DNA of 64,000 nucleotides from Chloroflexota bacterium (GCA_035653255.1 DASRCF010000089.1:1814-65813); one strand, 5' to 3'. Counted from the stretch's first letter, positions 1-51,897 are shown. Translations and numbers: made by a program. Notes: generated by a model from the sequence alone, not told the origin.

Positions 1-558
1 GTCGATGCCGCGGGAATCCCGTTCCCAGGTGAGACCATGCTGATTGCGGCAGCGGTATACGCCGGAAGCGGTGGCCTCCGGATCCCGTTCGTCATCCTTG
101 CCGCCGCCCTCGGCGCGTTCGCCGGCTTCTGCGTCAGCTACACCATCGGCCGGACTGGGGGCCGCGCGCTCGTGCTGCGCTACGGACACTTCGTGCGGCT
201 CGATCCGGCAAAGCTGGCCCGAGCCGAGACTTTCTTCCAGAAGTACGGCGATGCTACCGTCTTTCTTGGCCGGTTCGTGTCAGTAGGCCGTGCATTTGCC
301 GCGCTGCTGGCCGGCCTCAACCGCATGAACCTAGCCAAGTTCATGATCTTCAACGCGGCTGGGGCGGCAATCTGGGCCTGCCTATTCGGCGTCGCCGGCT
401 TCGAGCTGGGCCACGATCTGCCGCTTCTGCACCGACTGACACACGGCTTTGCCATCGGGGCCATCGTGATCGTGGTTGCTATCGTCGTAGGTGCTGTGCT
501 TTGGCACCTCATCCGACGCCGTCGAAGTCAGGAGAACGGCCCCGTTCGCGCGGAGTAA
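1..558 (+). CDS. DedA/SNARE-associated family membrane protein (5' partial; the ORF runs in from upstream of the window)
   Basis: The frame is open from base 1. The product shows multiple hydrophobic helices and the DedA-type motifs 'GETMLIAAAVYAGSGG...FLGRFVSVGRAFAALLAGL', with a C-terminal basic tail. Confidence 0.7.
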   Translation, partial: VDAAGIPFPGETMLIAAAVYAGSGGLRIPFVILAAALGAFAGFCVSYTIGRTGGRALVLRYGHFVRLDPAKLARAETFFQKYGDATVFLGRFVSVGRAFAALLAGLNRMNLAKFMIFNAAGAAIWACLFGVAGFELGHDLPLLHRLTHGFAIGAIVIVVAIVVGAVLWHLIRRRRSQENGPVRAE

Positions 559-652: not shown

Positions 653-2056
653 TCAGAGAATGTTGGTGACGTCCAGCTCCGGGTACGTCGCCAGGTGGCG
701 CAGCATCAGGTCGCGGATCTCGTTCATTCGCGGCTCGGTCTTGGCCTCGAACCGCATGGTGAGGTTGGGCTCGGTATTGGATGCCCGAACGAGGCCCCAG
801 CCATCCCCGAAATCGACCCGGGCCCCGTCGAGGGTGATCACCTTGTGGTCGCGCTCAAAGTGAGCTCGGACGCTATCGACGACGCGGAACTTCTCGCTGT
901 CCGGACAGAAGAGGCGTTGCTCCGGCGTGGCGAAGTATCGAGGCGCCGAGGCCATGACGTGCGACAGGCTCTCCGGCTGCCGGCTCAGAAACTCAAGCAC
1001 GTTACAGGCGGTGAACGTTCCGTCGTCGAAATCTATGCGCGGGTCATCGAAAAACACGTGTCCACTAAATTCACCGGCCAGTGGTGCATGCTCCTGCTTC
1101 CGCTTCTCGGAGATGTTGGGATACCCCGTCTTCCACATCACCGGCACGCCCCCGTGGGCCTTGATATCCTCCTGCAACGCCAGGCTTGTCTTGACGTCGA
1201 AGACGATGGCGGACCCCGGGTCCTTGTGTAGTGCGCGGCGGGAGAGCGGAATGAGGTACTGATCGGGCCAGAGAATAGCGCCCGCGTCGTCGACGACGCC
1301 GCACCGGTCGCCGTCGCCGTCCAGCCCGATCCCGAGGTCGCACTTCTCTCGACGAACGGCGGCGATGAGGTCGACCAAATTCTCCTCCTTTAGAGGATTG
1401 GGAATGTGGTGCGGGAAGGTGGAGTCGGGCTCGATGTAGAGCGGCACGACTTCCATGCCCAGCTCTCGAAAGATGGTCAGACCCGTCGGCCCCGCGACTC
1501 CGTTGCCGGAGTCGAGAGCCACCTTTAACGGTCGTTCCACCACCACGCGACTCTTCACGTAGTCGATGTACTCGGGTAGGATGTCGTGCGTGTTGTAGCC
1601 GCCTTCCCCGCCTGCATAGTCGCCTGCATCGACGATGCGCCGCAGCTCCTGTACCTCGTCCGGATCCAGCGGAACGCTGGAGCCGCCTGAGCGCCAGCGC
1701 TGCTTCAGGCCGTTGAACTCAGGGGGATTGTGGCTGGCGGTAACTACCACCCCCCCGTCGCAGTCGAGGGCTCCGACGGAAAAGTAGAGGACGGGCGTCG
1801 GCACCTCGCCAACGTCGACCACCGTGTGACCGGTAGATCTGAGACCCCGGGTGAACGCTTCCGAAAAGTCTTTCGAGCTGGCTCGCACGTCTCTGCCGAT
1901 GACCACGCGTCCACACCGGCCGATCTTCCGTCGCAGGAGCGTGCCATAGGCCCGGCCCAAGAGCGTGAGAACGTCTGTGGTGAGGTCCTCGCCGACGATC
2001 CCACGGATGTCATACTCCCGAAAGATGGCCGGATTTACCTGCACTGAGGTTCCCAT
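653..2056 (-). CDS. phosphomannomutase/phosphoglucomutase (alpha-D-phosphohexomutase family)
   Basis: 467 aa. The N-terminus 'FREYDIRGIVGEDLT' and the catalytic phosphoserine loop 'VVVTASHNPPEFNGLK' are canonical PMM/PGM features. Confidence 0.85.
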   Translation of the reverse strand: MGTSVQVNPAIFREYDIRGIVGEDLTTDVLTLLGRAYGTLLRRKIGRCGRVVIGRDVRASSKDFSEAFTRGLRSTGHTVVDVGEVPTPVLYFSVGALDCDGGVVVTASHNPPEFNGLKQRWRSGGSSVPLDPDEVQELRRIVDAGDYAGGEGGYNTHDILPEYIDYVKSRVVVERPLKVALDSGNGVAGPTGLTIFRELGMEVVPLYIEPDSTFPHHIPNPLKEENLVDLIAAVRREKCDLGIGLDGDGDRCGVVDDAGAILWPDQYLIPLSRRALHKDPGSAIVFDVKTSLALQEDIKAHGGVPVMWKTGYPNISEKRKQEHAPLAGEFSGHVFFDDPRIDFDDGTFTACNVLEFLSRQPESLSHVMASAPRYFATPEQRLFCPDSEKFRVVDSVRAHFERDHKVITLDGARVDFGDGWGLVRASNTEPNLTMRFEAKTEPRMNEIRDLMLRHLATYPELDVTNIL

Positions 2057-2242
2057 GTCTCCCTCTCTGTCCTTTCTCGCATTCTCGCAGAAGGAGGCCC
2101 CGAGTCCCGACCCGAGGGAATCGGCCGAGTGAGGGTCTGAGGTCGAACGGCGAACGATGAGATGAAGGTCGAAAGCCTCCGCCCAACCAGGGACCTGAAG
2201 CCCGAAACCAACCTTGGGCCCGAAAGGTTGGGATCTTGCTTC

Positions 2243-3529
2243 TTAGATGCGGCCGGCGCGCCTCAGGGGGCCGGTGATATCGAACACGTAGCGGAGCATC
2301 TCGGTATGGACCTCCGTCCGCTCGACGTCTCGCCGGCTCATGGCGATCTGGGCAGTCTGCAGCATGCGCTCGAAATCGTACTCCTGGTAGGAGCCGTCGC
2401 CTCCCCAGACAAAGCACGGCACGACTTTCGGCAGCATGCCGCCACCAAAGAGATTGCACCCGGTCCCGATTGTGCTGCCGGAGTTCAGAAGGACGCCGAT
2501 ACCCAGCTTCACGTGGTCACCGACCAGAGCCCCGAGCTTCGTCAGCCCGGTGTCGAGCTGCCTGTCCTGCAGCTCGATCCGGATGGAACCGTAGGTATTT
2601 TTCAGATCGCTGGTGGTGGTCATGGCTCCGACGTTGACCCACTCGCCGAGATAGCTGTGCCCGACGAAGCCGTCATGGTACTTGTTCGTGTAGGCATGGA
2701 AGATTGAACACTCTACCTCGCCACCGACCCGGCAATACGGGCCTATGCTCGTGTCCTCCCGCACCTTGCCGCCGACGATGCGTACGTACCGTCCGATGTA
2801 GCATGGCCCTTGGACGAAGGAGAAGGGCTGAATGACGGCGCCCTCGTCTATGTAGATCGGTCCGTCCCTGGCGTCGAGCACGGCTCCCGCCATGATCTCG
2901 GCGCTCGGATCCACGAACACCCGGTCCCGGTTGTAAATTGCGGCGGCCGGATGTGGCTGGGCCTGTTCCGGGTCGAGCCGCTGCATATCGAAGTCAGCGA
3001 CGATCTCGCGTCCATTTCGGTGAATGAGATCCCAAGGATACGCGACCATCTCGACCTCCACCCGCTGGACGCGGACCTCCCTAGCGATGGTGGCCATGAC
3101 ACTCTCGGTGTCCTGCTCCGCCAGCCATTTCAGACCGATGGTCAACCGCGGACCCGACAATCGTGCGGCCACCAGGTCGTCTCCACAGACGTAGAGGGCG
3201 TCCTCGCCGTCCGGCGTGATTTCCAAGTCCAGGTCACGCCTGGCGAGCAGGCGTCCGTTCAGGAAGAGGATTTGCCCATACGACCGAAGCAGGTCGCGGG
3301 AGTTGCCGATGAGCGAGGGCTGATTTTGGGAATCCGCCACTCGAATCAGGTATGGCCTGCACAGCTGGCGGATGGTGCAACCGTTGTAGACCAGACTGAT
3401 CTTCTTGAACAGCGTACGCATGCCGCAACGGAGATCGAAGACGGGCCTTGTATACGCCAGGGGCAGAAAGTTCTCTGCCTTCTCGTCTTCGAACACGCAT
3501 ACCGTCGGGGCCGCCATGATCCGGGTCAC
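2243..3529 (-). CDS. NTP-transferase-like protein with C-terminal left-handed beta-helix (GlmU/GCD1-like), likely a sugar-phosphate nucleotidyltransferase or degenerate paralog
   Basis: 428 aa. The C-terminal half is built of hexapeptide repeats ('IGRYVRIVGGKV...IGPYCRVGGEV...VGHSYLGEWVNVGAMTT...LGIGVLLNSGSTIGTGCNLFGG'). The N-terminal half resembles a nucleotidyltransferase fold. It overlaps the upstream YvcK-like gene by 4 nt, so the two are in an operon. Confidence 0.6.
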   Translation of the reverse strand: MTRIMAAPTVCVFEDEKAENFLPLAYTRPVFDLRCGMRTLFKKISLVYNGCTIRQLCRPYLIRVADSQNQPSLIGNSRDLLRSYGQILFLNGRLLARRDLDLEITPDGEDALYVCGDDLVAARLSGPRLTIGLKWLAEQDTESVMATIAREVRVQRVEVEMVAYPWDLIHRNGREIVADFDMQRLDPEQAQPHPAAAIYNRDRVFVDPSAEIMAGAVLDARDGPIYIDEGAVIQPFSFVQGPCYIGRYVRIVGGKVREDTSIGPYCRVGGEVECSIFHAYTNKYHDGFVGHSYLGEWVNVGAMTTTSDLKNTYGSIRIELQDRQLDTGLTKLGALVGDHVKLGIGVLLNSGSTIGTGCNLFGGGMLPKVVPCFVWGGDGSYQEYDFERMLQTAQIAMSRRDVERTEVHTEMLRYVFDITGPLRRAGRI

Positions 3530-4761
3530 CCTGCCGCTGCGCGCGCCCGCGTTTGTGCGATGATCCCACGAAGCGCCCGTGCCAGCTTGGTGGAGTCGTG
3601 CCGGATCACCGTCACGGTTTGCTCACTGGCCGTGCCCAGCTCCGGATCCAGCGTCAGCCTGGTCTCATTGATGACGTCCATGATGTCCGCTTCGATGACC
3701 GTCGAGCCGGCAATGTTGAGCATCGTCGAGCCCGGGAAGCTTCCTCCCAGGACAACCTTGGAAGCGTCGATGTGCTCTTCGGGCGTCACCATGATCGGAA
3801 ATGAGCCCGTGACCTCGTAGCGGTTGAGGATGTGGGATCCCGGGTAGCTTCGGTTGACGATGGTGTATTGGGGCGCGAAGCCGGCAAAATCACGAAATCT
3901 GGAGATGAAATCGGTGACGGTCCAGCCATCAGTGCGACCGGGCTCGGTCATCACGTTGCATATGAAGATGGTTGCCGCTCGTGCGGCCGCGAGGCGCTCG
4001 CGCAGCTTCGGCACCAGAAGACAGGGCACGACGCTGGTGTAGAAAGACCCCGGCCCAAACACGATCAGGTCCGAAGACTTGATGGCGGTGTCCAACTCCT
4101 GAGGAACGGCCCACGAGGAGGTGTCGGCAGGTGTACGGCTATCGGAGGATAGGAAGAGCTCTTCGACCGGCTGGTGTAGATCACGCTCTATCTCCGCGGC
4201 GCCGGCCACCACCTGCCCATCGGTGAGCCGGGCACAAAGCTGGACATTTTCGGGCGTGGCGAACATTACACGGGCGTCGGGATGTGAGGTGCGCACAAGG
4301 CGTCCTATGGTGCGGTAGTCGCTGCCGACGGCCGGCACTGCTGCCACCCGCCCCACGCTGTCGCTCAGCGCATTCAAGACAATGAGCAGACCCATGTGGC
4401 CGCTGAATAGAGTGGCATCGGGCAGGCCCTGACGCGAAACCGCGCTCAGCACCATCGACTGCCCGGCCTGCTGCTCGACCAGAGATAGGGTGAGGCCAAA
4501 GCGCCCCCGGTGCAGTCGCCAGATTCCAACCAGGACAAGAAGCAGGCCGAGGCCGAAGATCGCGAGCCCCTGTACGATCTTGCCGGCAAAGCGCAGCGTG
4601 ATGTCGTCGACCGCGTTCGCCGGCAGGATATGTCGAAGCAGGTTTAGAACCACCTCGCCGAGGCCGGCTCCGAGCAGCATCACGCCGACGGCCAGCACCA
4701 CCAGCCAGAGGTTACCTGTGGCTCCAAATCCACGCCGTCGCATCAAGACCTCACACTCCAA
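3526..4761 (-). CDS. YvcK/UPF0052 (CofD-like, gluconeogenesis-factor family) paralog with an N-terminal two-helix membrane anchor and a degenerate glycine-rich loop
   Basis: The C-terminal family motifs are intact ('DLIVFGPGSFYTSVVPCLLVP', 'ICNVMTEPGRTDGWT'). The usual 'IGGGTG' loop reads 'FSGHMGL'. The first ~100 aa contain two strongly hydrophobic segments. Confidence 0.75.
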   Translation of the reverse strand: MECEVLMRRRGFGATGNLWLVVLAVGVMLLGAGLGEVVLNLLRHILPANAVDDITLRFAGKIVQGLAIFGLGLLLVLVGIWRLHRGRFGLTLSLVEQQAGQSMVLSAVSRQGLPDATLFSGHMGLLIVLNALSDSVGRVAAVPAVGSDYRTIGRLVRTSHPDARVMFATPENVQLCARLTDGQVVAGAAEIERDLHQPVEELFLSSDSRTPADTSSWAVPQELDTAIKSSDLIVFGPGSFYTSVVPCLLVPKLRERLAAARAATIFICNVMTEPGRTDGWTVTDFISRFRDFAGFAPQYTIVNRSYPGSHILNRYEVTGSFPIMVTPEEHIDASKVVLGGSFPGSTMLNIAGSTVIEADIMDVINETRLTLDPELGTASEQTVTVIRHDSTKLARALRGIIAQTRARAAAG

Positions 4762-4915
4762 GCCCAGGCGATTTCACAATGATGCGAGATCAGCGGCTGC
4801 ACCTCTCGGGCCGGTCTCCGGTGGTGGCGAGTCAGGCGGCGTTTCAGCCCGCTTCGGCCGGCTCTCAAGAGCCGGACAGGCCGCACTCGCGAAGTGCCCT
4901 ACCATCGATTAGCCT

Positions 4916-5950
4916 GTGGGAGTATATCAACCTTCGCCGCCGCCGTCAACAGTACCGAGAGCAGCACGTGTGCTGTTCATCGGCGGCGGCACTGGTGCGC
5001 CTGAGCTTCTCGTCGCCCTTCGCGACCGCCTCCCTGAGTCGGTGTGCTCCATTGTCGTGCCTGTGACCGATACCGGACGCAGCACTGGAGTAATCCGCCG
5101 CGTACTGGGCATTCCGGCTCCGGGGGACCTGCGTCACTGCCTCACCACCCTGGCCGGCTCCCGCTCGGAGTGGGGACGAACACTTGAGCGCCGGCTGCGC
5201 GCTCCCCCGGATGGCGGCTTTGACGGCATGGCGGTCGGCAACCTCGTGCTCGGGGCACTGACCCAGGAGACGGGCAACATCGGTCTGGCTGCCGGGCGAC
5301 TCTCCTCAATGCTCGGCGTGGCCGAGCAGGTGCTCCCGGTCAGCTTGGAAGACATCCACCTGTCAGCCGAGCTGGAGGACGGCACCAGGGTGCACGGCGA
5401 GTACGAGGTACGGCGCCCGGGCAAACAGGCCATCCGCTCGCTGTTCATTGAGGGTCAGCAAGAGGGAGCATGGGAGCCCGTTCGCACTGCCATCGAGGAG
5501 GCGACCCACTGCGTGCTGGGGCCCGGAAGCTTGTGGACGAGTCTTGGAGCGGTCCTGGAAGTCAGAGGCATTCGTGAAGCGCTGGCAACCTCGAGCGCTC
5601 GGATCCTATTCGTCTGCAACACCACCACCCAGCCCGGTCAGACCGATGGGCTCGACTTTCAAGGTCACATCGGGGTGGTGACCCGTCTCTCCGGTCGCGC
5701 GCCGGATGTCGTGCTTGCCAACACCGGCCAGCCCGAGCCGGACCTGGAAGAGGACCTGGCCCTCCATGATCTGCACATGGTGTACCCGCCGGCCATGGCC
5801 GGCCAGGATTCCGCCAGCGTCATCATCGGCAAGGACTTCCTGGCACGGTCGCGACCCGACAGGGACTGGCAGAAGCTGCACACTGCCTATCACGACATGA
5901 ACAAGGTGGCCGCCGCCCTGGTTCCGCTCATTCAGGAGGGCGCGGAGTGA
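4916..5950 (+). CDS. YvcK/UPF0052 family protein (canonical)
   Basis: The family motifs are all present: 'VLFIGGGTGAPELL', 'VTDTGRSTGVIRRVLGIPAPGDLRHCL', 'LGPGSLWTSL', 'FVCNTTTQPGQTDG'. The gene is divergent from the other YvcK paralog. Its start is either GTG 4916 or GTG 4970. Confidence 0.8.
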   Translation: MGVYQPSPPPSTVPRAARVLFIGGGTGAPELLVALRDRLPESVCSIVVPVTDTGRSTGVIRRVLGIPAPGDLRHCLTTLAGSRSEWGRTLERRLRAPPDGGFDGMAVGNLVLGALTQETGNIGLAAGRLSSMLGVAEQVLPVSLEDIHLSAELEDGTRVHGEYEVRRPGKQAIRSLFIEGQQEGAWEPVRTAIEEATHCVLGPGSLWTSLGAVLEVRGIREALATSSARILFVCNTTTQPGQTDGLDFQGHIGVVTRLSGRAPDVVLANTGQPEPDLEEDLALHDLHMVYPPAMAGQDSASVIIGKDFLARSRPDRDWQKLHTAYHDMNKVAAALVPLIQEGAE

Positions 5951-6003: not shown

Positions 6004-6446
6004 TCCCGAACGCTTCCGCGGCGGTGACTCCCGGTGCACTCGTCCTCTGTACAAGCCAGAAAGGGCAGGCCGTAACACCGGCAGTATTCCCCTCCTCGAA
6101 CCCCAACCCGTGGGGAAGTTGGCGGGCCGACGCAAAAGTCTTCCCGCTCCCGCGTTCGGACCTCGTGACGTACCCCACACCCGACCAGGGCCCTTCGGCT
6201 GCTATTCGGCGTCGGCATTTTCTGCTGCCCCCGGCCGAATGCCGAGCCATGGTAGAGTGACACCTGCGCAGTCGCTTTGATGGGGCCAATCTTCCTACAG
6301 GCGACGAGTCCAGCGATGGGGGAGGTGTCTGCGAGCCAGGCTCACGGCGCCGGCGGCTCGTCCCCGCATCTCGCGCGCCCTATGCCATCTACCCCGTGGG
6401 GTGGAGACCGCGCGTCCTTCGACTCACCTCTAGGAGGATCATCGAA

Positions 6447-7664
6447 ATGGGACCTACGCGACTCATCCGGATCGCAGTCATGCCGCTCGCTCTGGCCCTC
6501 ACTCTGACTCTTCCCCTGCTCGGTTTCTCGCCGGCGGCCACGGGTGCTCCAGTGACACGGCACCTGGTATCCAGCGCCGTCAAAATAGAGATCCCCTTCG
6601 CTTTGTGGCCGTGTTCATGTGACAAGCGCAGCTTCGATCCCCAGCAGATTCGGAGCCAGAGCTCGAACCCCAACGCCGCCTACCACCGCGACCAGTACCA
6701 GAACGTGGATTCGGCATTGTTCCAGTACCGCGATGTCCCTCTAAACATCGGGAGTCAGACCATCCACCAGACCTGGCTCGCCACCCGTTACGCCGGCTCA
6801 GAAAACGCCTCAGACAGTCTCGACGACGCGACTTCGAACCTTGATGGACAGGGGAACTCGCAGCAGGGGTGCACGGATCAGAACAACCAGGCCGTGTCCA
6901 ACTGTGCCATTTATCTTCTGAGTCTGCGGGACGGGGACGGCAACCCCACGTCTTACGTTCTGTACGCCATATTCGCCATCGGCGCCACCGTCGGCGAGGT
7001 CAATCAGCACTACACGCTCGCCCAGTACGACGACAGCCACATTCAGGCAGCCCTGGACCGAGACTTCTTCCTGCTCCTCTCGGCGGCTTTGTCGGCGGTC
7101 CGCGCGGGTGGAAGTGGAATCAACCAGGGAGCTTGGCCCAGCCCGGAGTCCATGAACGCGCGCCTCTCGGCTGCCCAGGCTGACAGCGTCAAGATCAACC
7201 CGATTCCCTCACCCCTACGCAACCAGACCTACGCTAAGAGCGGGATGACAGCAGGTGTGCTGGAACGTGAGGTCTTGGCCGTTGGGCCGGGCAATCTCTA
7301 CAGTGGGATCTGGCTCGGATCGCTGTACTCATCTGCGGCCAAGGCAGCCGCAAGATACCAGAGGATCGAGACCTACCTAGGCAGCGGATCCTTCCGTGGA
7401 AGCTGTAGCAAGCCGAGCGGGAAGAGTGGTGCCACACCAAGCTGCGCCTTTTGGCAGCTCCCACCGGGCACACGAGGCATCTCCAATGGAGTCCTTTACG
7501 GTATTTTTGCCGTCGGCAACACCGTCGGTGAGGTCGCGGTGCTCGGAAGTCCGGCTGACTTCTCCAACAGCAGCCGCTTACAAATCCTCAAGAAAGCGTT
7601 TCGATCGCTGCTCACGGGCGGACTCGAAGCTGAGTACCAAGCCAACGGGCTCCAGGTGCCCTAA
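6447..7664 (+). CDS. secreted hypothetical protein made of two tandem copies of a Cys-pair / 'Y-x-F-A-[VI]-x-x-T-V-G-E-V' module
   Basis: SD 'TAGGAGGA' lies 8 nt before ATG 6447. The N-terminus is a signal peptide ('MGPTRLIRIAVMPLALALTLTLPLLGFSPAATGA'). The internal repeats are 'CTDQNNQAVSNC...YVLYAIFAIGATVGEV' and 'CSKPSGKSGATPSC...VLYGIFAVGNTVGEV'. The ORF track starts the frame at 6396. Confidence 0.6.
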   Translation: MGPTRLIRIAVMPLALALTLTLPLLGFSPAATGAPVTRHLVSSAVKIEIPFALWPCSCDKRSFDPQQIRSQSSNPNAAYHRDQYQNVDSALFQYRDVPLNIGSQTIHQTWLATRYAGSENASDSLDDATSNLDGQGNSQQGCTDQNNQAVSNCAIYLLSLRDGDGNPTSYVLYAIFAIGATVGEVNQHYTLAQYDDSHIQAALDRDFFLLLSAALSAVRAGGSGINQGAWPSPESMNARLSAAQADSVKINPIPSPLRNQTYAKSGMTAGVLEREVLAVGPGNLYSGIWLGSLYSSAAKAAARYQRIETYLGSGSFRGSCSKPSGKSGATPSCAFWQLPPGTRGISNGVLYGIFAVGNTVGEVAVLGSPADFSNSSRLQILKKAFRSLLTGGLEAEYQANGLQVP

Positions 7665-7749: not shown

Positions 7750-7793
7750 GCACACGTTGCTGTGTGCACCATTGCAAATCTGCAGCAACCAGG

Positions 7794-10439
7794 ATGGATA
7801 GTTACGTGCGTGATACCCCTCTTAGAAGAGTCGTAAGCGTTCTCTCATCGCTCGCTCTGGCATCAAGCGCCGTTTTCGGGGCGGGTGCCGTTGCTTCACT
7901 GGCGGCGTCGCCATCACACGGGGCCACCCTCAGGGGCCAGGCTGTCATTCGCGGCGAGGTCGCACCACCGATCCTCAACCATGCGGCCAGGCTGATAGGC
8001 GCTCGCAACCCGGCGTCACGCATGGGAGTCTCGGTGGCCCTGCCGCTCCGTCATCCGGCCGAGCTGGACCGGCTGATCAATCGTATTGAGCTGGGCCAAG
8101 CCCGTCCCATCAGTCAAGCTCAGTTCGATGCCCGCTATGGGCAGCCGGCGGCCCGGGTCGTCGCCGTCACGCGCTGGGCCGCCTCGTATGGACTCCATGT
8201 CATCTATCACAGTCCGGACGGCCTTGACGTCAGCCTAGACGGAACTACTCAAGCCTTCGACCGAGCGCTCCGAATCCGCGTCAACGACTATCGCCTGGGA
8301 AGCCGGAGATTTTTCGCGGCAGCATCCAACCCGTGGGTGCCGGCGAAGCTTCACATCATGACCATCGTCGGTCTCAACAGCCTGATTCACGGCTACGCTC
8401 TCGGCCTGCATCGGCGAAGCTTTCCCGCCGGCGGTTACACTCCCAAGGAGCTTCGGGCCGCCTACGACGTGTCTCAGCACGCCGGCAGTGGCGCCGGCCA
8501 GACAATCGGCTTCACCCTTTGGGGCTCACCCACCCCCGCGGCCGACTTCAACAAGTTCTCCACCGTGACCGGCGATGCCCACATCACGCAATGCGCCGCC
8601 ACCACGACCGTCCCCACGCCCGCGGCCTGCCAGGGGACACACGCCGCCAACACCATCCAGTGGGTGCAGCTCGACGGCAAGAGCAACGACCTCCGCGGCA
8701 ATGACGAGACTGCGATGGATGTCGAGGAAGCGCACGGCATAGCGCCCAACAGTCACCTCAAGTACTTCCTGGGCGACGACGGCTCAGGCCAGGGTCTCGT
8801 CGATGTGATCGCGGCGGCGGCCAACGATACCGACAAGACCCTGCACGCAGTCAGCAACAGCTGGGGTGCCTGCGGTCCGGGACCCGGTGCCGGAGGCTGC
8901 ACCAGCCTGGTCAACGCGCAGACCAGCGAATTCAAACATGCCGTGGCTACCGGGAGAACCTTCTTCTTCTCCAGCGGCGACTCCGCCGCCTTTTCGGGCT
9001 GCCCGCGCCACGGCACCGAGCTACAGGTCACCTGCAACGGCACGCCCGAGCCGAGTTGGCCCGCCGACAGCCCGTTGGTGGTCGCCGTCGGAGGCACCAA
9101 CCTGCAGATGAACAGCAGCTTCACCGCCTATTCTTCTGAGAGCGTCTGGAGCAACCTCCAGTTCGGAAACTCCAGCGCCTACTCGGTCTCCGGGGGCGGC
9201 AGCGGTTGCGCCTCCTTCTTCGGCCGCCCACTGTTTCAGCAGGGCGTGGCCGGCGTGACCGCGAACGCTACGTGCGCGGGCCGTGCCGAGCCGGACGTCG
9301 CCGCCGATGCCGACGCCTCGAGCGGTGTGCTCGAGATCGCCACCTCGACCAACCAGAACAACCAGAATCCCAAGCAGGTCCAGTTCGTCGACGGCGGGAC
9401 GAGCCTGGCGGCACCACTCTGGACGGGAATGTCCGCCGACACCAACAATTTCCTGCTGGCACACCACAGGGCACTCCAAGGATTCTGGGCGCCGGAGATC
9501 TACAAGCTGGCGCAGACGGCCAGGTACGACAGCTACTTCCACGACGTGGTCTGCGGCTTCAACGGGTCTCCTGCCTCTCTCGGCTGGGACCAGGCGACCG
9601 GTTGGGGAAGCCCTGACTGGTTCAATCTGACCGAAGGCATCGCCGGCATAGCCGTGGGCGCCAAGCCGGCGCCTTCGAATTGCCAGATTCCGGCCTCAGA
9701 AGCGGTGGCGACGGCCGAGGCCAGCCTCAAGCTGCCCTTCAAGTTCTGGCCTCCAGGCACCGAAGCCAGCACCGAGCGGGTTCGCAGTGCGGGTGACAGC
9801 ATCTTCGACGATGCCACCTGCGATCAAACGAGTTGCAACAACTTCTTCCGCCAGTTCCATGGGCACAGCTACGCCAGCTTCGGCTTCAAGGGCGGAGCCG
9901 AGGAGCAGGCGGTGTTCACGATCGGGGGCGACTCAAGCAGCCCATTCGCCTTTTTCGCCGGCAGTTACTACCCCAACAGTCTCGACGCGCACAGGGTCAT
10001 CGAGGATGCGGTGGCGCACGCCAATAGCGCCTTTCACATAGGCAGCTTCGATTGCTCGGTCAACCTGGAGGGCGTCAGCACGCTGACGCCGGATTGCAAG
10101 GCGATGCAGTTCCAGTTCCCCGGCCCTCCGGTCGTCGACGCCACCATCTATCTCTTTGCAGTGAACAACACCGTCGGCGAGCTGATCGTTGAGGCCAACG
10201 ATAGCACAGTGAGCGCCAGCCAGAGCAATACCAACACCTATCTTGCTGATTCGGACCACTTAGCCGGGTTCGAGATTGCGCAGCTCTACGTGGCCTCGAA
10301 CGCTACCTCCGTGGTCTATCCGGCGCCGTCACTCCGACACCGGGCGTTAGGTCCGCTGAAATTCGATGCCGTGCCCAGCCTTCGCCTCTCAGAAGGGCCC
10401 GCACGAGATCTGCCTACCCCTTCCTCTATCAGTCGATAG
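7794..10439 (+). CDS. S53 family serine-carboxyl peptidase (sedolisin/kumamolisin-like) with a ~300-aa C-terminal extension
   Basis: It has a signal peptide, a pro-kumamolisin-type activation region, and a catalytic domain with 'GGTSLAAPLWTG' (the SGTSxAAP serine motif). The C-terminal extension carries 'CDQTSCNNF...DCKAMQFQFPGPPVVDATIYLFAVNNTVGEL', which is homologous to the repeats of the upstream ORF. An alternative start is GTG 7764. Confidence 0.85.
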   Translation: MDSYVRDTPLRRVVSVLSSLALASSAVFGAGAVASLAASPSHGATLRGQAVIRGEVAPPILNHAARLIGARNPASRMGVSVALPLRHPAELDRLINRIELGQARPISQAQFDARYGQPAARVVAVTRWAASYGLHVIYHSPDGLDVSLDGTTQAFDRALRIRVNDYRLGSRRFFAAASNPWVPAKLHIMTIVGLNSLIHGYALGLHRRSFPAGGYTPKELRAAYDVSQHAGSGAGQTIGFTLWGSPTPAADFNKFSTVTGDAHITQCAATTTVPTPAACQGTHAANTIQWVQLDGKSNDLRGNDETAMDVEEAHGIAPNSHLKYFLGDDGSGQGLVDVIAAAANDTDKTLHAVSNSWGACGPGPGAGGCTSLVNAQTSEFKHAVATGRTFFFSSGDSAAFSGCPRHGTELQVTCNGTPEPSWPADSPLVVAVGGTNLQMNSSFTAYSSESVWSNLQFGNSSAYSVSGGGSGCASFFGRPLFQQGVAGVTANATCAGRAEPDVAADADASSGVLEIATSTNQNNQNPKQVQFVDGGTSLAAPLWTGMSADTNNFLLAHHRALQGFWAPEIYKLAQTARYDSYFHDVVCGFNGSPASLGWDQATGWGSPDWFNLTEGIAGIAVGAKPAPSNCQIPASEAVATAEASLKLPFKFWPPGTEASTERVRSAGDSIFDDATCDQTSCNNFFRQFHGHSYASFGFKGGAEEQAVFTIGGDSSSPFAFFAGSYYPNSLDAHRVIEDAVAHANSAFHIGSFDCSVNLEGVSTLTPDCKAMQFQFPGPPVVDATIYLFAVNNTVGELIVEANDSTVSASQSNTNTYLADSDHLAGFEIAQLYVASNATSVVYPAPSLRHRALGPLKFDAVPSLRLSEGPARDLPTPSSISR

Positions 10440-23380: not shown

Positions 23381-24334
23381 TTGACGCTTCTCCAGGCGAT
23401 CGTCATCAGCATACTCCAGGGCGTGTCCGAACTGTTTCCGGTCTCCAGCCTGGGCCACGCCGTCATTCTGCCCAAGCTGCTGCATTGGAATATCAACGAG
23501 TCGGGCAAGACCTGGCTGGCCTTTCTGGTTGCTCTGCATGTAGGAACGGCGACCGCCCTCCTGATCTACTTTTGGAGCGATTGGCGGGCTGTTCTTCTAG
23601 CCTTTGTCCGTAGCGTGCAGAAGGCTGAGATTGGGGCCGATCAGGATCAGCGTCTGGCGTGGATGGTGGTCCTTGGGACTGTACCGGCAGGCCTCGTCGG
23701 CTCGATTCTTCAGAAGCCGCTGCGGTCTCTATTCGCCTCTCCCTACATCGCGGCGGCGTTTCTCATCGTCAACGGCGCCATCATGTTCCTGGGAGAGTGG
23801 CTGCTTCAACGGCAGCTGGCAGCCTCGGCCGGCGCCGGCGCCACACAACCCGCTATAGCAATGGCGGGAGGCAGCGGCCAGGTGAGTCGGACTTCACCTC
23901 AGGCCGAGGTGGCCGACTCAGCCTTCGGTGGGGAGCGGTACAGAGACATTACCCAGCTGAGCTGGCGTGATGCCGCGGTAGTAGGATTCGCTCAGATAGG
24001 CGCCTTGATTCCGGGCATTTCCCGCTCCGGCATTACCATGGTGGCGGGATTGGCGGCGGGGTTGACCCACGAGGCAGCTGCCCGCTACGCATTCCTCTTG
24101 GCAACACCCATCATCGCAGCGGCCGGTCTTCTCGAGCTGCCCGATCTCTTCTCCAGTCACGCCCGTTCGATCCTTGGCTACGCCGTCATCGGCATGGTGC
24201 TGGCCGGCATCGCCGCGTATCTGTCCGTTCGCTACCTCATGCGCTACTTCGAGTTCGGGCGTCTCTACCCCTTCGCGTATTATTGCGTTGGGGCAGGAGC
24301 ATTGAGTCTAATCCTCCTCAGCGCCCACCTCTAA
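23381..24334 (+). CDS. uppP: undecaprenyl-diphosphatase (BacA/UppP), with a ~40-aa low-complexity insertion
   Basis: The family motifs 'SELFPVSSLGH' and 'SRSGITMVAGLAAGL' are present. Confidence 0.85.
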   Translation: MTLLQAIVISILQGVSELFPVSSLGHAVILPKLLHWNINESGKTWLAFLVALHVGTATALLIYFWSDWRAVLLAFVRSVQKAEIGADQDQRLAWMVVLGTVPAGLVGSILQKPLRSLFASPYIAAAFLIVNGAIMFLGEWLLQRQLAASAGAGATQPAIAMAGGSGQVSRTSPQAEVADSAFGGERYRDITQLSWRDAAVVGFAQIGALIPGISRSGITMVAGLAAGLTHEAAARYAFLLATPIIAAAGLLELPDLFSSHARSILGYAVIGMVLAGIAAYLSVRYLMRYFEFGRLYPFAYYCVGAGALSLILLSAHL

Positions 24335-42935: not shown

Positions 42936-44447
42936 CTATTTCTGTCGTCGAATCGGTATCTCGTACAGCTTGATGAGTCCGATGGTTTGGAAACGATCGG
43001 CCCGTGCGACCACCTTCTGAGTGGCTTTCGGCCATTTCCGTCGCGGCCAGGAGCCCGGCTCGACGATGAGGAAGACCGTTCCCGCCTTCGAGACCGGCGG
43101 ATGACCGAGCCGGCTCAGGACGTAGTGGTAGCCCGCCGGATAGTTGAGATATGACGCCATGCGCAGCTCGAAGGGGCGCCCCTTGGACCGGCTCACGATC
43201 TTCCGGTCGACTCGCAGCACGTGGCCGTAGGTATCGTCGGGCTGGAGATCGTTTCTGGTGATCGCGGCATCGGCCACGGTGGACTTGGGGGTGACGAAGC
43301 TGTAGGTCCAGGTCTGACGAGTGCCCACTACAACAAGGGCCGCCACAAGTATCACTCCAACCGCTTTGCCGGCACGGTACCGGCCGACCAGCCAGAGCAA
43401 CGCCCCCAAGAGCACAAACGGAATCACGAAAAGGCAGACCATGTACTGCTCGAACACCTGCTTGCGATAGATCTCAAAGCCCACGGCGGCGACGACCAGG
43501 AGCAGCATGGCCAGCCTCACTTCCCAGTTGGCCTCGCCGGACAACGACCGCAACCCACTGACGGCAAGCCCGGCAGCGCCAAGGCAGACCGTTAAGACCA
43601 CCGTCAAGGGTACATTCGGAACCGACAGCGCTCGGTAGAAGAGGTTGAAGAGCAGCTTGAGGCTGGAGGCGCCCCTGCTCGGCGCGTTGCTCTTTCCATG
43701 GATGAGCACCGCCAGCCAAGCCTTCAGATTCGCCAGGTTGTGGGTTCCGTCGTAGATGAGCAACGGCGAGGAGATCACGACGAAGATGATGACTGCACCA
43801 CAGAGAAGTGCGGCCGAGGGCCGTGGGGGTCGAGCCCAAAGAATGAAGACCAGAGCGACCGGAATCACGAAGAGGTTGACCGGCTGAAGCTGAACGAGAC
43901 AGGCGAGAGATGCGGCCACGACCAGAATCGATTCGGTTCGTCCTCGCTTCCACGAAACGAGCGCCCATAGGAGCGCCAGGGTGAAGAAGGGGGTGATGGT
44001 GGGGTTCCAGGGCCGTCTCGAATACTCGACCATGAGGAAGGAAGCCGCCATCACCAGGGCTGCTCCTCCGGCCGGCAGTGATCCCAGAGGTGCTTTCAGG
44101 TACAGAAAGAGCATGACCGTGGCGGCCACGCCGAAGATCCCCACCAAGATGGTTGGACCGACGGGCGAACCGTTCGACAGCCACATCGGTATCGCTTCCA
44201 GGTAGTAGAACAGCGGGCCTAGGTGCAGAGTATGGCCGATGGAAAGGCTGGGACCGAGCAGCGGCAGTTTCCCGTGGATGAGGCTCCATTCGGCGGCGCT
44301 CTCTCGCCCCTCATCGCCCATGAAGTGGAAGTCCGTGCCGATCATCCAGAACCGGAGGACCGAGCCGAGAGCCACCACCAGGACGAGGAGGGCATACCCG
44401 AGATCGAAGTTGCTTGCGGGTCGCCGGTCACTGAATCGGCGGATCAT
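42936..44447 (-). CDS. GT-C fold membrane glycosyltransferase (ArnT/PMT-like, GT39/GT83 family)
   Basis: There are 11-13 TM helices. The first periplasmic loop carries a 'DE' motif ('FHFMGDEGRE'). Confidence 0.7.
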   Translation of the reverse strand: MIRRFSDRRPASNFDLGYALLVLVVALGSVLRFWMIGTDFHFMGDEGRESAAEWSLIHGKLPLLGPSLSIGHTLHLGPLFYYLEAIPMWLSNGSPVGPTILVGIFGVAATVMLFLYLKAPLGSLPAGGAALVMAASFLMVEYSRRPWNPTITPFFTLALLWALVSWKRGRTESILVVAASLACLVQLQPVNLFVIPVALVFILWARPPRPSAALLCGAVIIFVVISSPLLIYDGTHNLANLKAWLAVLIHGKSNAPSRGASSLKLLFNLFYRALSVPNVPLTVVLTVCLGAAGLAVSGLRSLSGEANWEVRLAMLLLVVAAVGFEIYRKQVFEQYMVCLFVIPFVLLGALLWLVGRYRAGKAVGVILVAALVVVGTRQTWTYSFVTPKSTVADAAITRNDLQPDDTYGHVLRVDRKIVSRSKGRPFELRMASYLNYPAGYHYVLSRLGHPPVSKAGTVFLIVEPGSWPRRKWPKATQKVVARADRFQTIGLIKLYEIPIRRQK

Positions 44448-51737: not shown

Positions 51738-51812
51738 TGGAGGCGACGGCCGGAATCGAACCGGCGATAGAGGTTTTGCAGACCTCCGCCTTAACCACTT
51801 GGCCACGTCGCC
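51738..51812 (-). tRNA. tRNA-Cys (GCA)
   Basis: The cloverleaf was folded by hand. It has acceptor GGCGACG/CGTCGCC, anticodon loop CTGCAAA, T-loop TTCGATT and an encoded CCA. Confidence 0.85.
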
Positions 51813-51822
51813 GAAATAAAAA

Positions 51823-51897
51823 TGGAGCGGAAGACGAGGTTCGAACTCGCGACCTTCTCCTTGGCAAGGAGACGCGCTACCACTGCGCCACTTCCGC
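51823..51897 (-). tRNA. tRNA-Gly (GCC)
   Basis: It has acceptor GCGGAAG/CTTCCGC, anticodon loop TTGCCAA, T-loop TTCGAAC and an encoded CCA. Confidence 0.85.

What the first reader, a model, noticed from the sequence alone, without database searches (positions are those of the whole stretch)
3526..5950. Divergent pair of YvcK (gluconeogenesis-factor) paralogs, one membrane-anchored with a degenerate ligand loop
Two UPF0052/YvcK proteins are encoded head-to-head 154 bp apart. The plus-strand copy is canonical (IGGGTG loop, VTDTGRSTG, GPGSLWTS). The minus-strand copy keeps the C-terminal family motifs but replaces GGGTG with SGHMG and gains an N-terminal ~100 aa with two TM helices. It heads an operon with a left-handed beta-helix nucleotidyltransferase-like protein and phosphomannomutase. 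YvcK homologs bind UDP-sugars and position cell-wall synthesis. A membrane-tethered, possibly ligand-blind paralog co-transcribed with sugar-nucleotide enzymes suggests a regulatory or scaffolding variant that is not described for this family.
Basis: partly seen in the sequence, partly recalled or inferred. Interest (0 to 1): 0.55.

Follow-up and report, generated by a model that had tools for sequence, protein, structure and literature searches.

The report
Membrane-anchored, cut-down GlmR/YvcK paralog pair
A Chloroflexota genome carries two diverged copies of the cell-wall-precursor regulator GlmR/YvcK side by side; one is tethered to the membrane, has lost its catalytic part but keeps the UDP-GlcNAc-binding residues, and is always encoded next to UDP-GlcNAc synthesis enzymes, which suggests a membrane-bound sensor or scaffold for that pathway.

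Summary
Two PF01933 (CofD/YvcK) genes diverge from one intergenic region. The minus-strand gene (3526-4743) has two conserved N-terminal TM helices and an invariant SGHMG loop in place of GGGTG. It heads an operon with a TIGR03991 'alternative GlmU' and a phosphohexomutase.

New findings:
- The TM paralog also lacks about 70 residues of the canonical fold and the Asp-Asp pair needed for GlmR uridyltransferase activity.
- It keeps the equivalents of N218, Y265 and R301, the residues shown to bind UDP-GlcNAc in B. subtilis. It is therefore not 'ligand-blind'.
- The 'canonical' soluble copy has lost Y265 and R301 (YHD replaces RHD).
- The TM-truncated type forms a small clade of about 15 clusters at 50% identity. 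Members with a taxon label are Chloroflexota or Chloroflexia.
- In 13 independent contexts it sits directly after glmS, inside glmS-X-glmM-glmU, next to a soluble paralog, or fused to a phosphohexomutase.
- TM anchoring alone is common in the family.

Best reading: a cytoplasm-facing, membrane-tethered, non-catalytic GlmR-like UDP-GlcNAc sensor or scaffold of the hexosamine pathway, paired with a feedback-insensitive soluble paralog. It is a new variant of a known kind, and its function is inferred, not shown.

The parts
3526..4743 (-). TM-anchored, truncated GlmR/YvcK-family paralog. It is 405 aa from ATG 4743; the longest ORF is 411 aa from TTG 4761, and residue numbers in this report use that ORF.
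   Evidence: PF01933 scores 114 bits over residues 151-326 only. TIGR01826 scores 113 bits, below the 196 cut-off. Nineteen homologs at 51-74% identity keep the whole architecture. The public annotation HZT96071.1 is 405 aa. The AF2 model has pLDDT 85.5, and the best fold matches are the YvcK structures 2ppv, 2o2z and 2hzb.
4642..4713 (-). TM helix 1 (residues 17-40, NLWLVVLAVGVMLLGAGLGEVVLN)
   Evidence: Kyte-Doolittle mean up to 2.35. The segment is conserved in homologs. It lies within AF2 helix 3-45. A basic N-terminus precedes it in the family.
4510..4578 (-). TM helix 2 (residues 62-84), followed by the basic stretch R82, R85, R87 and a disordered linker (92-107)
   Evidence: Kyte-Doolittle mean up to 2.55. 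It lies within AF2 helix 59-85, and the linker has pLDDT below 50. The charge distribution fits an N-in/C-in hairpin with the CofD-like domain in the cytoplasm.
4390..4404 (-). SGHMG loop (residues 120-124), which replaces the GGGTG glycine loop
   Evidence: G-H-M-G is invariant in 19 homologs, preceded by S in 18 and A in one. Profile-profile alignment places it on GGGTG at 100% probability. In the wider TM-truncated clade only the last Gly is invariant.
4318..4326 (-). G146-S147-D148, at the position of the canonical D-D-G of 'ADDGGS'. The catalytic Asp pair is absent.
   Evidence: Alignments; coordinates checked. D38A/D39A (B. subtilis) and D40A/D41A/N198A (Listeria) inactivate GlmR (PMC13046274, PMC10128056).
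3595..3603 (-). R387-H388-D389, the RHD motif. R387 is the equivalent of B. subtilis GlmR R301 (UDP-GlcNAc binding). Y315 (3817-3819) and N269 (3955-3957) are the equivalents of Y265 and N218.
   Evidence: Alignment to 2o2z with residue counting; MAFFT and hhalign alignments; conservation in the family, with Y315 and R387 invariant and N269 in 17 of 19 close homologs; mutant data in PMC5482804 and PMC7525490.
2243..3517 (-). Alternative bacterial GlmU candidate (NTP_transf_4 + left-handed beta-helix), 424 aa, 8 nt downstream of the TM paralog's stop codon
   Evidence: TIGR03991 scores 398 bits (cut-off 225); PF13562 and PF00132 also match. HZT96070.1 is 424 aa. The spacer was checked.
653..2056 (-). 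Phosphohexomutase (PGM/PMM/GlmM type), 467 aa, 186 bp downstream
   Evidence: All four PGM_PMM domains match. The best NCBIfam hits are PgmG (400 bits) and archaeal-type GlmM TIGR03990 (352 bits), both below their cut-offs, so the substrate is not assigned. The gene order is the same in L001, L003 and L005.
4921..4949 (-). Conserved sigma-70-type promoter of the TM-paralog operon (TTGACG, 17-nt spacer, extended -10 TG-n-TATACT), giving a leader of about 170 nt
   Evidence: Promoter scan, 10 of 12 matches with TG. The motif TGnTATACTCCCA(C/A)AGG(C/T)TA is conserved in five genomes whose proteins are only 50-74% identical.
4970..5950 (+). Soluble YvcK-family paralog, 326 aa from GTG 4970 (longest ORF from GTG 4916, 344 aa). 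It has GGGTG (4982-4996) and D52-T53 in 'DTGRS', and YHD (5888-5896) where the family has RHD.
   Evidence: PF01933 scores 215 bits; TIGR01826 scores 207 against a cut-off of 196. HZT96072.1 is 326 aa. YHD and Leu at the Y265 column are invariant in four orthologs.

Best explanation
The minus-strand gene encodes a cytoplasm-facing GlmR/YvcK-family protein. A two-helix N-in/C-in hairpin holds it on the membrane.

Compared with characterised GlmR it has lost three things:
- the Asp-Asp/Asn residues required for uridyltransferase activity;
- the GGGTG loop;
- a central sub-domain of about 70 residues.

It has kept the Asn/Tyr/Arg triad that binds UDP-GlcNAc in B. subtilis GlmR.

I infer that it is a non-catalytic UDP-GlcNAc sensor and/or scaffold. 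It would hold or regulate the hexosamine-pathway enzymes (GlmS, the GlmM-like mutase, the alternative GlmU) at the membrane, where UDP-GlcNAc is consumed for envelope synthesis.

The divergently transcribed soluble paralog has the opposite pattern. Its N-terminal half is intact and it keeps one Asp, but the Tyr and Arg of the ligand site are lost. The pair therefore looks like a sub-functionalised GlmR: a feedback-insensitive soluble part and a membrane-bound sensing part, possibly acting as a heteromer.

Shown: architecture, conservation, residue pattern, synteny and the fusion. Inferred: ligand binding, absence of catalysis, partners, and the direction of regulation.
For: Identity and fold:
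- PF01933 match.
- AF2 model with pLDDT 85.5 whose best fold matches are YvcK crystal structures (E about 1e-19, target TM-score 0.66).

The TM anchor is genuine:
- The N-terminus is conserved in 19 homologs and in a clade at about 25% identity.
- Substitutions against L001 in the N-terminal 95 codons fall 25/16/62 on codon positions 1/2/3.
- The public annotation is 405 aa.
- The positive-inside pattern fits a cytoplasmic domain.

Residue pattern:
- N269, Y315 and R387 correspond to N218, Y265 and R301. Y265A and R301A abolish UDP-GlcNAc binding, and T14A hardly affects it (PMC5482804, PMC7525490).
- The DD pair is replaced by G146-S147 and the N198 equivalent by C247. D38A/D39A and D40A/D41A/N198A inactivate GlmR (PMC13046274, PMC10128056).
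- Canonical residues about 64-133 are deleted.

Context:
- The same four-gene module occurs in L001, L003 and L005 with different flanks.
- The order glmS -> TM paralog -> GlmM-like -> TIGR03991 occurs in three Chloroflexia MAGs, with start and stop codons abutting.
- glmS, or its SIS-domain 3' end, lies directly upstream in L014, L017, L018 and L019.
- In L016 the gene sits between a mutase and an NTP_transf_4 gene.
- A soluble paralog is adjacent in L015 and L019.
- P0058 is a single 873-aa ORF that fuses the TM-truncated module to a complete phosphohexomutase.

Precedent: B. subtilis GlmR binds and stimulates GlmS, and UDP-GlcNAc switches this off (PMC7525490, PMC6171935).
Against: - No binding, activity or interaction was measured.
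- Residue equivalence rests on alignments at 20-30% identity. No model coordinates were available, so I could not check that N269, Y315 and R387 form one pocket.
- The deleted sub-domain and the altered loop may contribute to the UDP-sugar site, so binding could be lost or retargeted despite the conserved triad.
- Listeria GlmR naturally lacks Y265 (PMC10128056), so that Tyr is not universal.
- D148 is nearly invariant next to the lost DD pair and could rescue a metal site.
- In the window's own lineage glmS is not in the neighbourhood: none is found among ORFs of 230 residues or more in the 64-kb window.
- The fusion protein was seen on one contig only.
- The mutase's substrate is unassigned.
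- Gene adjacency is the only evidence for a heteromer with the soluble paralog.
Confidence: 0.5

Rival explanations
1. Ligand-blind scaffold. The TM paralog no longer binds any nucleotide sugar and only tethers partner enzymes, or the soluble paralog, to the membrane.
For: The GGGTG loop is replaced, about 70 core residues are missing and the DD pair is lost. The fusion to a phosphohexomutase fits a pure tether. The loop is variable across the wider clade.
Against: Y315 and R387 are invariant in the close homologs and N269, Y315 and R387 are nearly invariant in the wider clade, and H388-D389 is invariant. These are the positions whose mutation abolishes UDP-GlcNAc binding in B. subtilis (PMC5482804). 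GHMG is itself invariant in the subclade, which suggests a selected function rather than decay.
Confidence: 0.2
2. Active enzyme. The protein is either a membrane-bound uridyltransferase that supplements the alternative GlmU, or a CofD-like phosphotransferase that moves a sugar-phosphate from a nucleotide sugar onto a membrane acceptor.
For: GlmR homologs have uridyltransferase activity (PMC10128056, PMC13046274). CofD and FbiA, the founding members of PF01933, are phosphotransferases that use a nucleotide-activated donor, and they are detectable fold relatives. The invariant His122 and Asp148 could form a new active site. The membrane location suits a lipid acceptor.
Against: The residues shown to be needed for GlmR catalysis are absent: DD is replaced by GS and N198 by C/S/A. 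The central sub-domain is deleted. There is no match to the CofD equivalog TIGR01819. Two TM helices give no obvious lipid-substrate site.
Confidence: 0.15
3. Artefact or decaying duplicate. The hydrophobic N-terminus comes from a mis-called start and the real product is a soluble, degenerating YvcK remnant.
For: One database gene call for the identical sequence starts at Met103 (P0001, 309 aa).
Against: The N-terminal region is conserved at protein level in all homologs, including a clade at 25% identity. Third-codon-position changes dominate there. There is an SD-like GAGG before ATG 4743 and none before ATG 4455. PGAP aa. Many columns are invariant along the whole protein.
Confidence: 0.03
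4. The pair serves a different pathway, such as F420 biosynthesis (CofD) or general gluconeogenesis, and its position next to hexosamine genes is incidental.
For: The public name is '2-phospho-L-lactate transferase CofD family protein'. The mutase could be a PMM/PGM rather than a GlmM.
Against: TIGR01819 gives no hit for the TM paralog and 40 bits against a cut-off of 257 for the soluble one. Linkage to glmS and TIGR03991 recurs in lineages only about 25% identical.
Confidence: 0.05

Closest known systems
Bacillus subtilis GlmR (YvcK), a UDP-GlcNAc-binding activator of GlmS and accessory uridyltransferase
   Same: Same fold and family (PF01933; fold match to the B. halodurans ortholog 2O2Z). 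The GPGSxYTS and NxMTxPGxTDG motifs, the C-terminal RHD motif and the N218/Y265/R301 equivalents are conserved in the TM paralog. There is a functional link to UDP-GlcNAc synthesis, shown here by gene neighbourhood.
   Different: GlmR is soluble, about 317 aa, has GGGTG, ADDGGS and the central PPGDxRN...GHxxGNL segment, and is encoded in yvcJ-glmR-whiA. The TM paralog has a two-helix anchor, SGHMG, no DD pair, a deletion of about 70 residues and a longer C-terminal beta-meander. It lies in a glmU-like/mutase (or glmS) operon. No yvcJ or whiA occurs in the 64-kb window.
Listeria monocytogenes GlmR (accessory uridyltransferase; catalytic D40, D41, N198)
   Same: Same family, with a role in UDP-GlcNAc supply.
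   Different: Neither window paralog has the full D-D...N set: the TM paralog has G-S...C and the soluble paralog has D-T...V. Uridyltransferase activity is therefore not expected from the published model. This mapping was made by residue numbering through the B. halodurans structure, not by direct alignment to the Listeria sequence.
Full-length membrane-anchored YvcK homologs (e.g. P0020 and P0021, about 430 aa; uncharacterised)
   Same: An N-terminal two-TM hairpin followed by a cytoplasmic YvcK domain. The basic/hydrophobic motif (K/R)RW(L/F) precedes TM1.
   Different: These keep the complete canonical core (GGGTG, ADDGGSSG, PPGDIRN, GHxxGNL). The window protein's clade has lost all of these.
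CofD / FbiA (2-phospho-L-lactate transferase, F420 biosynthesis)
   Same: Same Pfam family and a detectable fold relationship (Foldseek E 1e-7 to 1e-5).
   Different: The relationship is much more distant (TM-score 0.34-0.47). There is no TIGR01819 match, the context differs, and CofD/FbiA are soluble.

Membership tests
PF01933 CofD/YvcK superfamily | Pfam domain score above the gathering threshold (30 bits) | tested here: met
   The TM paralog scores 114.4 bits, covering profile positions 103-273 of 290 only. The soluble paralog scores 214.6 bits over positions 1-261.
YvcK/GlmR subfamily (TIGR01826) | Whole-protein score above NCBIfam's curated cut-off (196 bits) | tested here: not met
   The TM paralog scores 113 bits, so the feature is not met. 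The soluble paralog scores 207.4 bits and passes narrowly.
YvcK/GlmR subfamily | N-terminal glycine loop GGGTG | tested here: not met
   The TM paralog has SGHMG; G-H-M-G is invariant in 19 homologs, and it aligns to GGGTG at 100% hhalign probability. The soluble paralog has GGGTG.
YvcK/GlmR subfamily | ADDGGS motif with the Asp pair required for uridyltransferase activity (Bs D38/D39, Lm D40/D41), plus Asn of LPNLL (Lm N198) | tested here: not met
   The TM paralog has G146-S147 and C247. The soluble paralog has D52-T53 and Val. Mutant data are in PMC10128056 and PMC13046274.
YvcK/GlmR subfamily | Central segment PPGDxRN ... GHxxGNL (about residues 50-100 of 2O2Z) | tested here: not met
   The segment is absent from the TM paralog and its whole clade. 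The HMM hits split into 2hzb 2-52 and 99-279, and hhalign shows a gap of about 70 columns. The segment is present in the soluble paralog, with Met for His.
YvcK/GlmR subfamily | UDP-GlcNAc-contacting residues N218, Y265 and R301 (B. subtilis numbering) | tested here: met
   The TM paralog has N269, Y315 and R387, with Y315 and R387 invariant in its close homologs and all three nearly invariant in the wider clade. The soluble paralog keeps N235, but has Leu at the Tyr column and YHD for RHD. This is by alignment only; binding itself was not tested.
YvcK/GlmR subfamily | Synteny with yvcJ (rapZ-like) and whiA/yvcL | tested here: not met
   Pfam scans of all window ORFs of 230 residues or more found no RapZ-like or WhiA domain. 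None is called in the related loci either.
YvcK/GlmR subfamily | Binds UDP-GlcNAc, stimulates GlmS, or has uridyltransferase activity | not testable with these tools
   This needs biochemistry. Only the residue pattern and gene neighbourhood are available.
CofD/FbiA 2-phospho-L-lactate transferase (TIGR01819) | Equivalog score of at least 257 bits | tested here: not met
   The TM paralog has no hit. The soluble paralog scores 40.1 bits.
GAK-system CofD-like protein (TIGR04357) | Score of at least 340 bits | tested here: not met
   The scores are 61.6 and 65.7 bits.

The most novel reading that the evidence does not exclude
In these Chloroflexota the two jobs of GlmR have been split between two paralogs that work together at the membrane. 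A soluble, feedback-insensitive 'effector' half-function pairs with a membrane-anchored, catalytically dead UDP-GlcNAc 'sensor' that also docks GlmS, the mutase and the alternative GlmU. Together they form a membrane-tethered hexosamine metabolon that couples precursor synthesis directly to envelope assembly. A still bolder variant is that the TM protein has evolved a new His/Asp active site and transfers a sugar-phosphate to a membrane acceptor.
Probability: 0.2. Interest if true: 0.7.

Novelty: new variant of a known kind. Interest (0 to 1): 0.5.

Why it matters
There is an open debate about GlmR/YvcK: is it mainly a UDP-GlcNAc-sensing regulator of GlmS, or an accessory uridyltransferase? 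The published answers come only from Firmicutes and Actinobacteria.

This clade offers natural separation-of-function variants. One copy keeps the ligand-site residues without the catalytic Asp pair. The other has the reverse pattern.

The clade also supplies independent comparative-genomic evidence that ties the family to the hexosamine pathway in a distant phylum. That evidence is glmS-X-glmM-glmU operons and a fusion to a phosphohexomutase, in organisms that use the uncharacterised 'alternative GlmU' (TIGR03991).

The finding gives concrete, testable constructs. It also hints that UDP-GlcNAc synthesis may be organised at the membrane.

Tried and rejected
- **Riboswitch or ribozyme in the leader.** I looked for one in the leader of about 170 nt between the conserved promoter and the TM gene. 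There was no Rfam hit even at E<=1. Folding energy was no better than shuffles (z = 0.25). Conservation beyond the promoter and start region was poor. Rejected.
- **PDB sequence search with the C-terminal 113-116 residues alone.** This was meant to map R301 directly. It was uninformative. The mapping was obtained instead from MAFFT and hhalign alignments.
- **Alternative placement of SGHMG.** hhalign with the narrow family profile A1 placed SGHMG on the G(H/M)xxGNL motif. I judged this an edge artefact for three reasons. The broader profile aligns it to GGGTG at 100% probability with a clean deletion. HMMER gives the same split. The AF2 secondary structure (strand, loop, helix, strand at 116-143) fits the beta1-loop-alpha1-beta2 unit.
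- **AlphaFold-database fold search.** It was meant to find cultured hosts. The library was unavailable.
- **Second word-indexed protein search with the clade profile.** It added no cultured organisms or informative names.
- **Search for glmS, yvcJ or whiA elsewhere in the window.** None was found.
- **Pocket geometry.** Model coordinates are not exposed, so I could not measure the geometry of the N269/Y315/R387 site.
- **Comparison of the Pfam-less ORFs upstream of the two sedolisin-like protease genes.** The ORFs are unrelated.

Full report
**What is in the sequence**

Window positions 653-5950 hold four genes. On the minus strand there are three:
- A PF01933 (CofD/YvcK) protein. The longest ORF is 3526-4761 (411 aa).
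- A protein with an NTP_transf_4 domain and a hexapeptide beta-helix. It matches NCBIfam TIGR03991, 'alternative bacterial GlmU', at 398 bits against a cut-off of 225.
- A four-domain phosphohexomutase (653-2056).

On the plus strand, diverging from the first gene, lies a second PF01933 protein (longest ORF 4916-5950).

Exact-sequence look-ups show that this contig is already public as a Chloroflexota MAG (contig 70,890 bp). It is annotated as follows:
- HZT96069.1, PMM/PGM, 467 aa.
- HZT96070.1, putative sugar nucleotidyl transferase, 424 aa, starting at ATG 3517.
- HZT96071.1, CofD family protein, 405 aa, starting at ATG 4743.
- HZT96072.1, gluconeogenesis factor YvcK family protein, 326 aa, starting at GTG 4970.

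With these starts the divergent gap is 226 bp, not 154 bp. The second minus-strand gene begins 8 nt after the first one's stop codon.

**The membrane anchor is real**

The evidence goes against that start:
- Nineteen homologs at 51-74% identity, called independently on many contigs, all carry the N-terminal extension of about 100 residues with conserved positions such as G31, G33, L83 and T91-L92-S93.
- A second clade, only about 25% identical, carries it too.
- Against the closest homolog, nucleotide differences in the 95 N-terminal codons fall 25/16/62 on codon positions 1/2/3. The rest of the gene gives 59/26/181, a similar pattern.
- ATG 4743 is preceded by an SD-like GAGG, and ATG 4455 has nothing comparable.

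Two segments (residues 17-40 and 62-84) reach Kyte-Doolittle means of 2.0-2.5. AlphaFold2 (pLDDT 85.5, pTM 0.74) models two long helices, a disordered linker (92-107) and a confident globular domain.

Basic residues sit before TM1 and after TM2. The connecting loop is short and nearly uncharged in most homologs. This fits an N-in/C-in hairpin with the CofD-like domain in the cytoplasm.

**What the TM paralog has lost and kept**

Foldseek places the model next to the YvcK crystal structures 2ppv, 2o2z and 2hzb (E about 1e-19, target TM-score 0.66). CofD and FbiA are much further away.

HMMER and hhalign agree that the core is interrupted:
- The clade profile matches 2hzb residues 2-52 and 99-279 as two separate pieces.
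- Profile-profile alignment to the soluble paralogs (probability 100%) aligns TM residues 111-160 to soluble residues 14-63. It then skips about 70 residues that contain PxPGDxR and G(H/M)xxGNL.

In the glycine loop, SGHMG replaces GGGTG. G-H-M-G is invariant in the close homologs, preceded by S in 18 and A in one. Across the wider clade the loop varies (GGEPG, GGDPG, GASTG, SGGIG, AGHRG) and only the last Gly is fixed.

The literature allows a functional reading:
- In B. subtilis GlmR, T14A (the loop Thr) and N218A only weaken UDP-GlcNAc binding, whereas Y265A and R301A abolish it. The corresponding NAD contacts in 2O2Z are T13, N217, Y264 and R300 (PMC5482804, PMC7525490).
- Counting along the phmmer alignment to 2o2z gives N269 = N217/218 and Y315 = Y264/265.
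- The C-terminal RHD motif, whose position from the C-terminus fits R301, aligns with R387-H388-D389.
- Y315 and R387 are invariant in the close homologs, N269 is kept in 17 of 19, and all three are nearly invariant in the wider clade.
- By contrast, the Asp pair of ADDGGS aligns with G146-S147, and the Asn of LPNLL (Lm N198) aligns with C247. The double mutants D38A/D39A (B. subtilis) and D40A/D41A (Listeria) inactivate GlmR (PMC13046274, PMC10128056).

The paralog is therefore not obviously ligand-blind. It looks like a GlmR that has lost its proposed catalytic centre and cap while keeping the UDP-GlcNAc site.

**The soluble copy is not truly canonical**

The soluble copy passes TIGR01826 by only 11 bits. 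It and its orthologs in L001, L003 and L005 share these departures from the canonical pattern:
- DTGRS instead of DDGGS.
- GM instead of GH in GHxxGNL.
- Val at the N198 column.
- Leu at the Y265 column.
- An invariant YHD where the family has RHD.

The two neighbours thus show roughly complementary losses.

**How widespread the type is, and in what context**

A full HMMER scan of 1.84 billion representatives with the family profile gave 4,332 hits. Only about 15 representatives match over the full length, meaning TM hairpin plus interrupted core plus extended C-terminus. Named members are Chloroflexota or Chloroflexia MAGs. Some record titles say 'proteobacterium' or 'Acidobacteriaceae', which conflicts with this.

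Membrane anchoring itself is common. Of the 118 best representatives of 300 aa or more, 49 have N-terminal hydrophobic segments together with an intact canonical core. P0020 and P0021 are examples. The hydrophobicity criterion used here is crude.

Gene neighbourhood is strikingly consistent:
- **Window clade.** The module 'soluble paralog <-> TM paralog, TIGR03991-like gene, phosphohexomutase' recurs in L001, L003/L004 and L005 with unrelated flanks.
- **Three Chloroflexia MAGs (L011-L013).** The order is glmS (TIGR01135, about 745 bits), TM paralog, GlmM-like mutase, TIGR03991 protein. The glmS stop codon and the TM-paralog start abut or overlap.
- **L014 and L018.** glmS lies directly upstream.
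- **L017 and L019.** The truncated upstream gene is an SIS-domain C-terminus, as in glmS. L019 continues with a soluble paralog.
- **L015.** A soluble paralog is followed by the TM paralog.
- **L016.** A mutase is followed by the TM paralog and then an NTP_transf_4 protein.
- **P0058/L020.** One ORF of 873 aa fuses the TM-truncated module to a complete phosphohexomutase through a short natural-looking linker. It was seen on one contig only.
- **P0092.** A separate family member fuses a full YvcK domain to an NTP_transferase/hexapeptide (GlmU-like) module and a HAD domain.

**Regulatory region**

A sigma-70-type promoter lies on the minus strand at 4949-4921: TTGACG, a 17-nt spacer and an extended -10 TG-n-TATACT. 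Its -10 and the following bases (TGnTATACTCCCA(C/A)AGG(C/T)TA) are conserved in five genomes whose proteins are 50-74% identical. This implies a leader of about 170 nt, overlapping divergent transcription with the soluble gene. The leader has no Rfam match and no unusual stability.

**Interpretation**

The best-supported explanation (confidence about 0.5) is that the TM paralog is a cytoplasm-facing, membrane-tethered, non-catalytic GlmR-like protein. It would sense UDP-GlcNAc and/or scaffold the hexosamine enzymes at the membrane. The soluble neighbour would be a feedback-insensitive partner.

This follows from three things: the residue pattern, the tight coupling to glmS, glmM-like and glmU-like genes, and the mutase fusion. 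It also follows from the B. subtilis precedent, in which GlmR binds and activates GlmS and UDP-GlcNAc releases it (PMC7525490, PMC6171935).

Rivals are a truly ligand-blind tether (0.2), an active membrane enzyme with a re-invented site (0.15), another pathway (0.05) and an artefact or decaying gene (0.03). Ligand binding, activity, partners and heteromer formation are all inferred; none is shown.

**Comparison with known systems, and novelty**

The TM paralog belongs to the PF01933 superfamily and folds like YvcK. It fails several defining features of the YvcK/GlmR subfamily:
- the TIGR01826 cut-off;
- the GGGTG loop;
- the DD pair;
- the central segment;
- yvcJ/whiA synteny.

It should therefore be filed as a distinct, truncated, membrane-anchored branch rather than as a GlmR ortholog. 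No paper in the searchable library connects YvcK/GlmR/CuvA with a transmembrane anchor or describes this branch.

I rate it a new variant of a known kind, with moderate interest (0.5). It offers natural separation-of-function variants for the regulator-versus-enzyme debate about GlmR. It also gives independent genomic evidence linking the family to UDP-GlcNAc synthesis in Chloroflexota. The functional claims remain untested.

Noticed in passing
window 4744-4949 (minus strand): The promoter and start region TGnTATACTCCCA(C/A)AGG(C/T)TA is strongly conserved across five genomes. It gives a leader of about 170 nt ahead of the TM-paralog operon and overlaps the 5' end of the longest ORF of the divergent soluble gene. 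The leader shows no Rfam hit and no unusual fold stability.
   Followed up: partly
L020 6001-8622 (protein P0058): A single 873-aa ORF fuses a TM-anchored truncated CofD-like module to a complete four-domain phosphohexomutase. This is a Rosetta-stone link between the two neighbours in the window. It was seen on one contig only.
   Followed up: partly
protein P0092 (932 aa) and P0159 (567 aa), from the representative search: There are other multidomain YvcK-family proteins. P0092 is full CofD + NTP_transferase + hexapeptide (GlmU-like) + HAD. P0159 is HAD + CofD. They further tie the family to sugar-nucleotide metabolism.
   Followed up: no
window 37-558 (+) and 23381-24334 (+): A DedA/VTT-domain protein (weak match to the undecaprenyl-phosphate transporter UptA, 92 bits against a cut-off of 250) lies convergent with the mutase; L001 has the same arrangement. 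A BacA/UppP undecaprenyl-diphosphatase lies 20 kb away. Both are lipid-carrier recycling functions near the hexosamine operon.
   Followed up: no
window 7764-10439 (+) and 48091-49767 (+): Two paralogous sedolisin-like proteases (Pro-kumamolisin activation domain + S8/S53 domain) are 29% identical over about 520 residues. Each is preceded by a large ORF with no Pfam hit (6396-7664 and 46387-48066). These upstream ORFs are unrelated to each other.
   Followed up: partly
L007-L010 record titles versus protein names: Close homologs sit in MAGs titled 'uncultured proteobacterium', 'Proteobacteria bacterium' or 'Acidobacteriaceae bacterium'. The window's own proteins and P0012 are labelled Chloroflexota in NCBI. 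The record titles look taxonomically unreliable.
   Followed up: no
window 3526-4761 (database entry P0001): Public gene calls for the identical sequence disagree on the start: 309 aa from Met103 in one source and 405 aa in PGAP. The short call would hide the membrane anchor.
   Followed up: yes
window 51741-51897 (-): Two adjacent tRNA genes are the only Rfam gathering-threshold hits in the window.
   Followed up: no
window 44444-46291 (-) and 42936-44447 (-): A PMT_2-type (dolichyl/polyprenyl-phosphate-mannose-dependent) glycosyltransferase is followed by a 503-aa ORF with no Pfam hit. This is another envelope-glycosylation function in the window.
   Followed up: no
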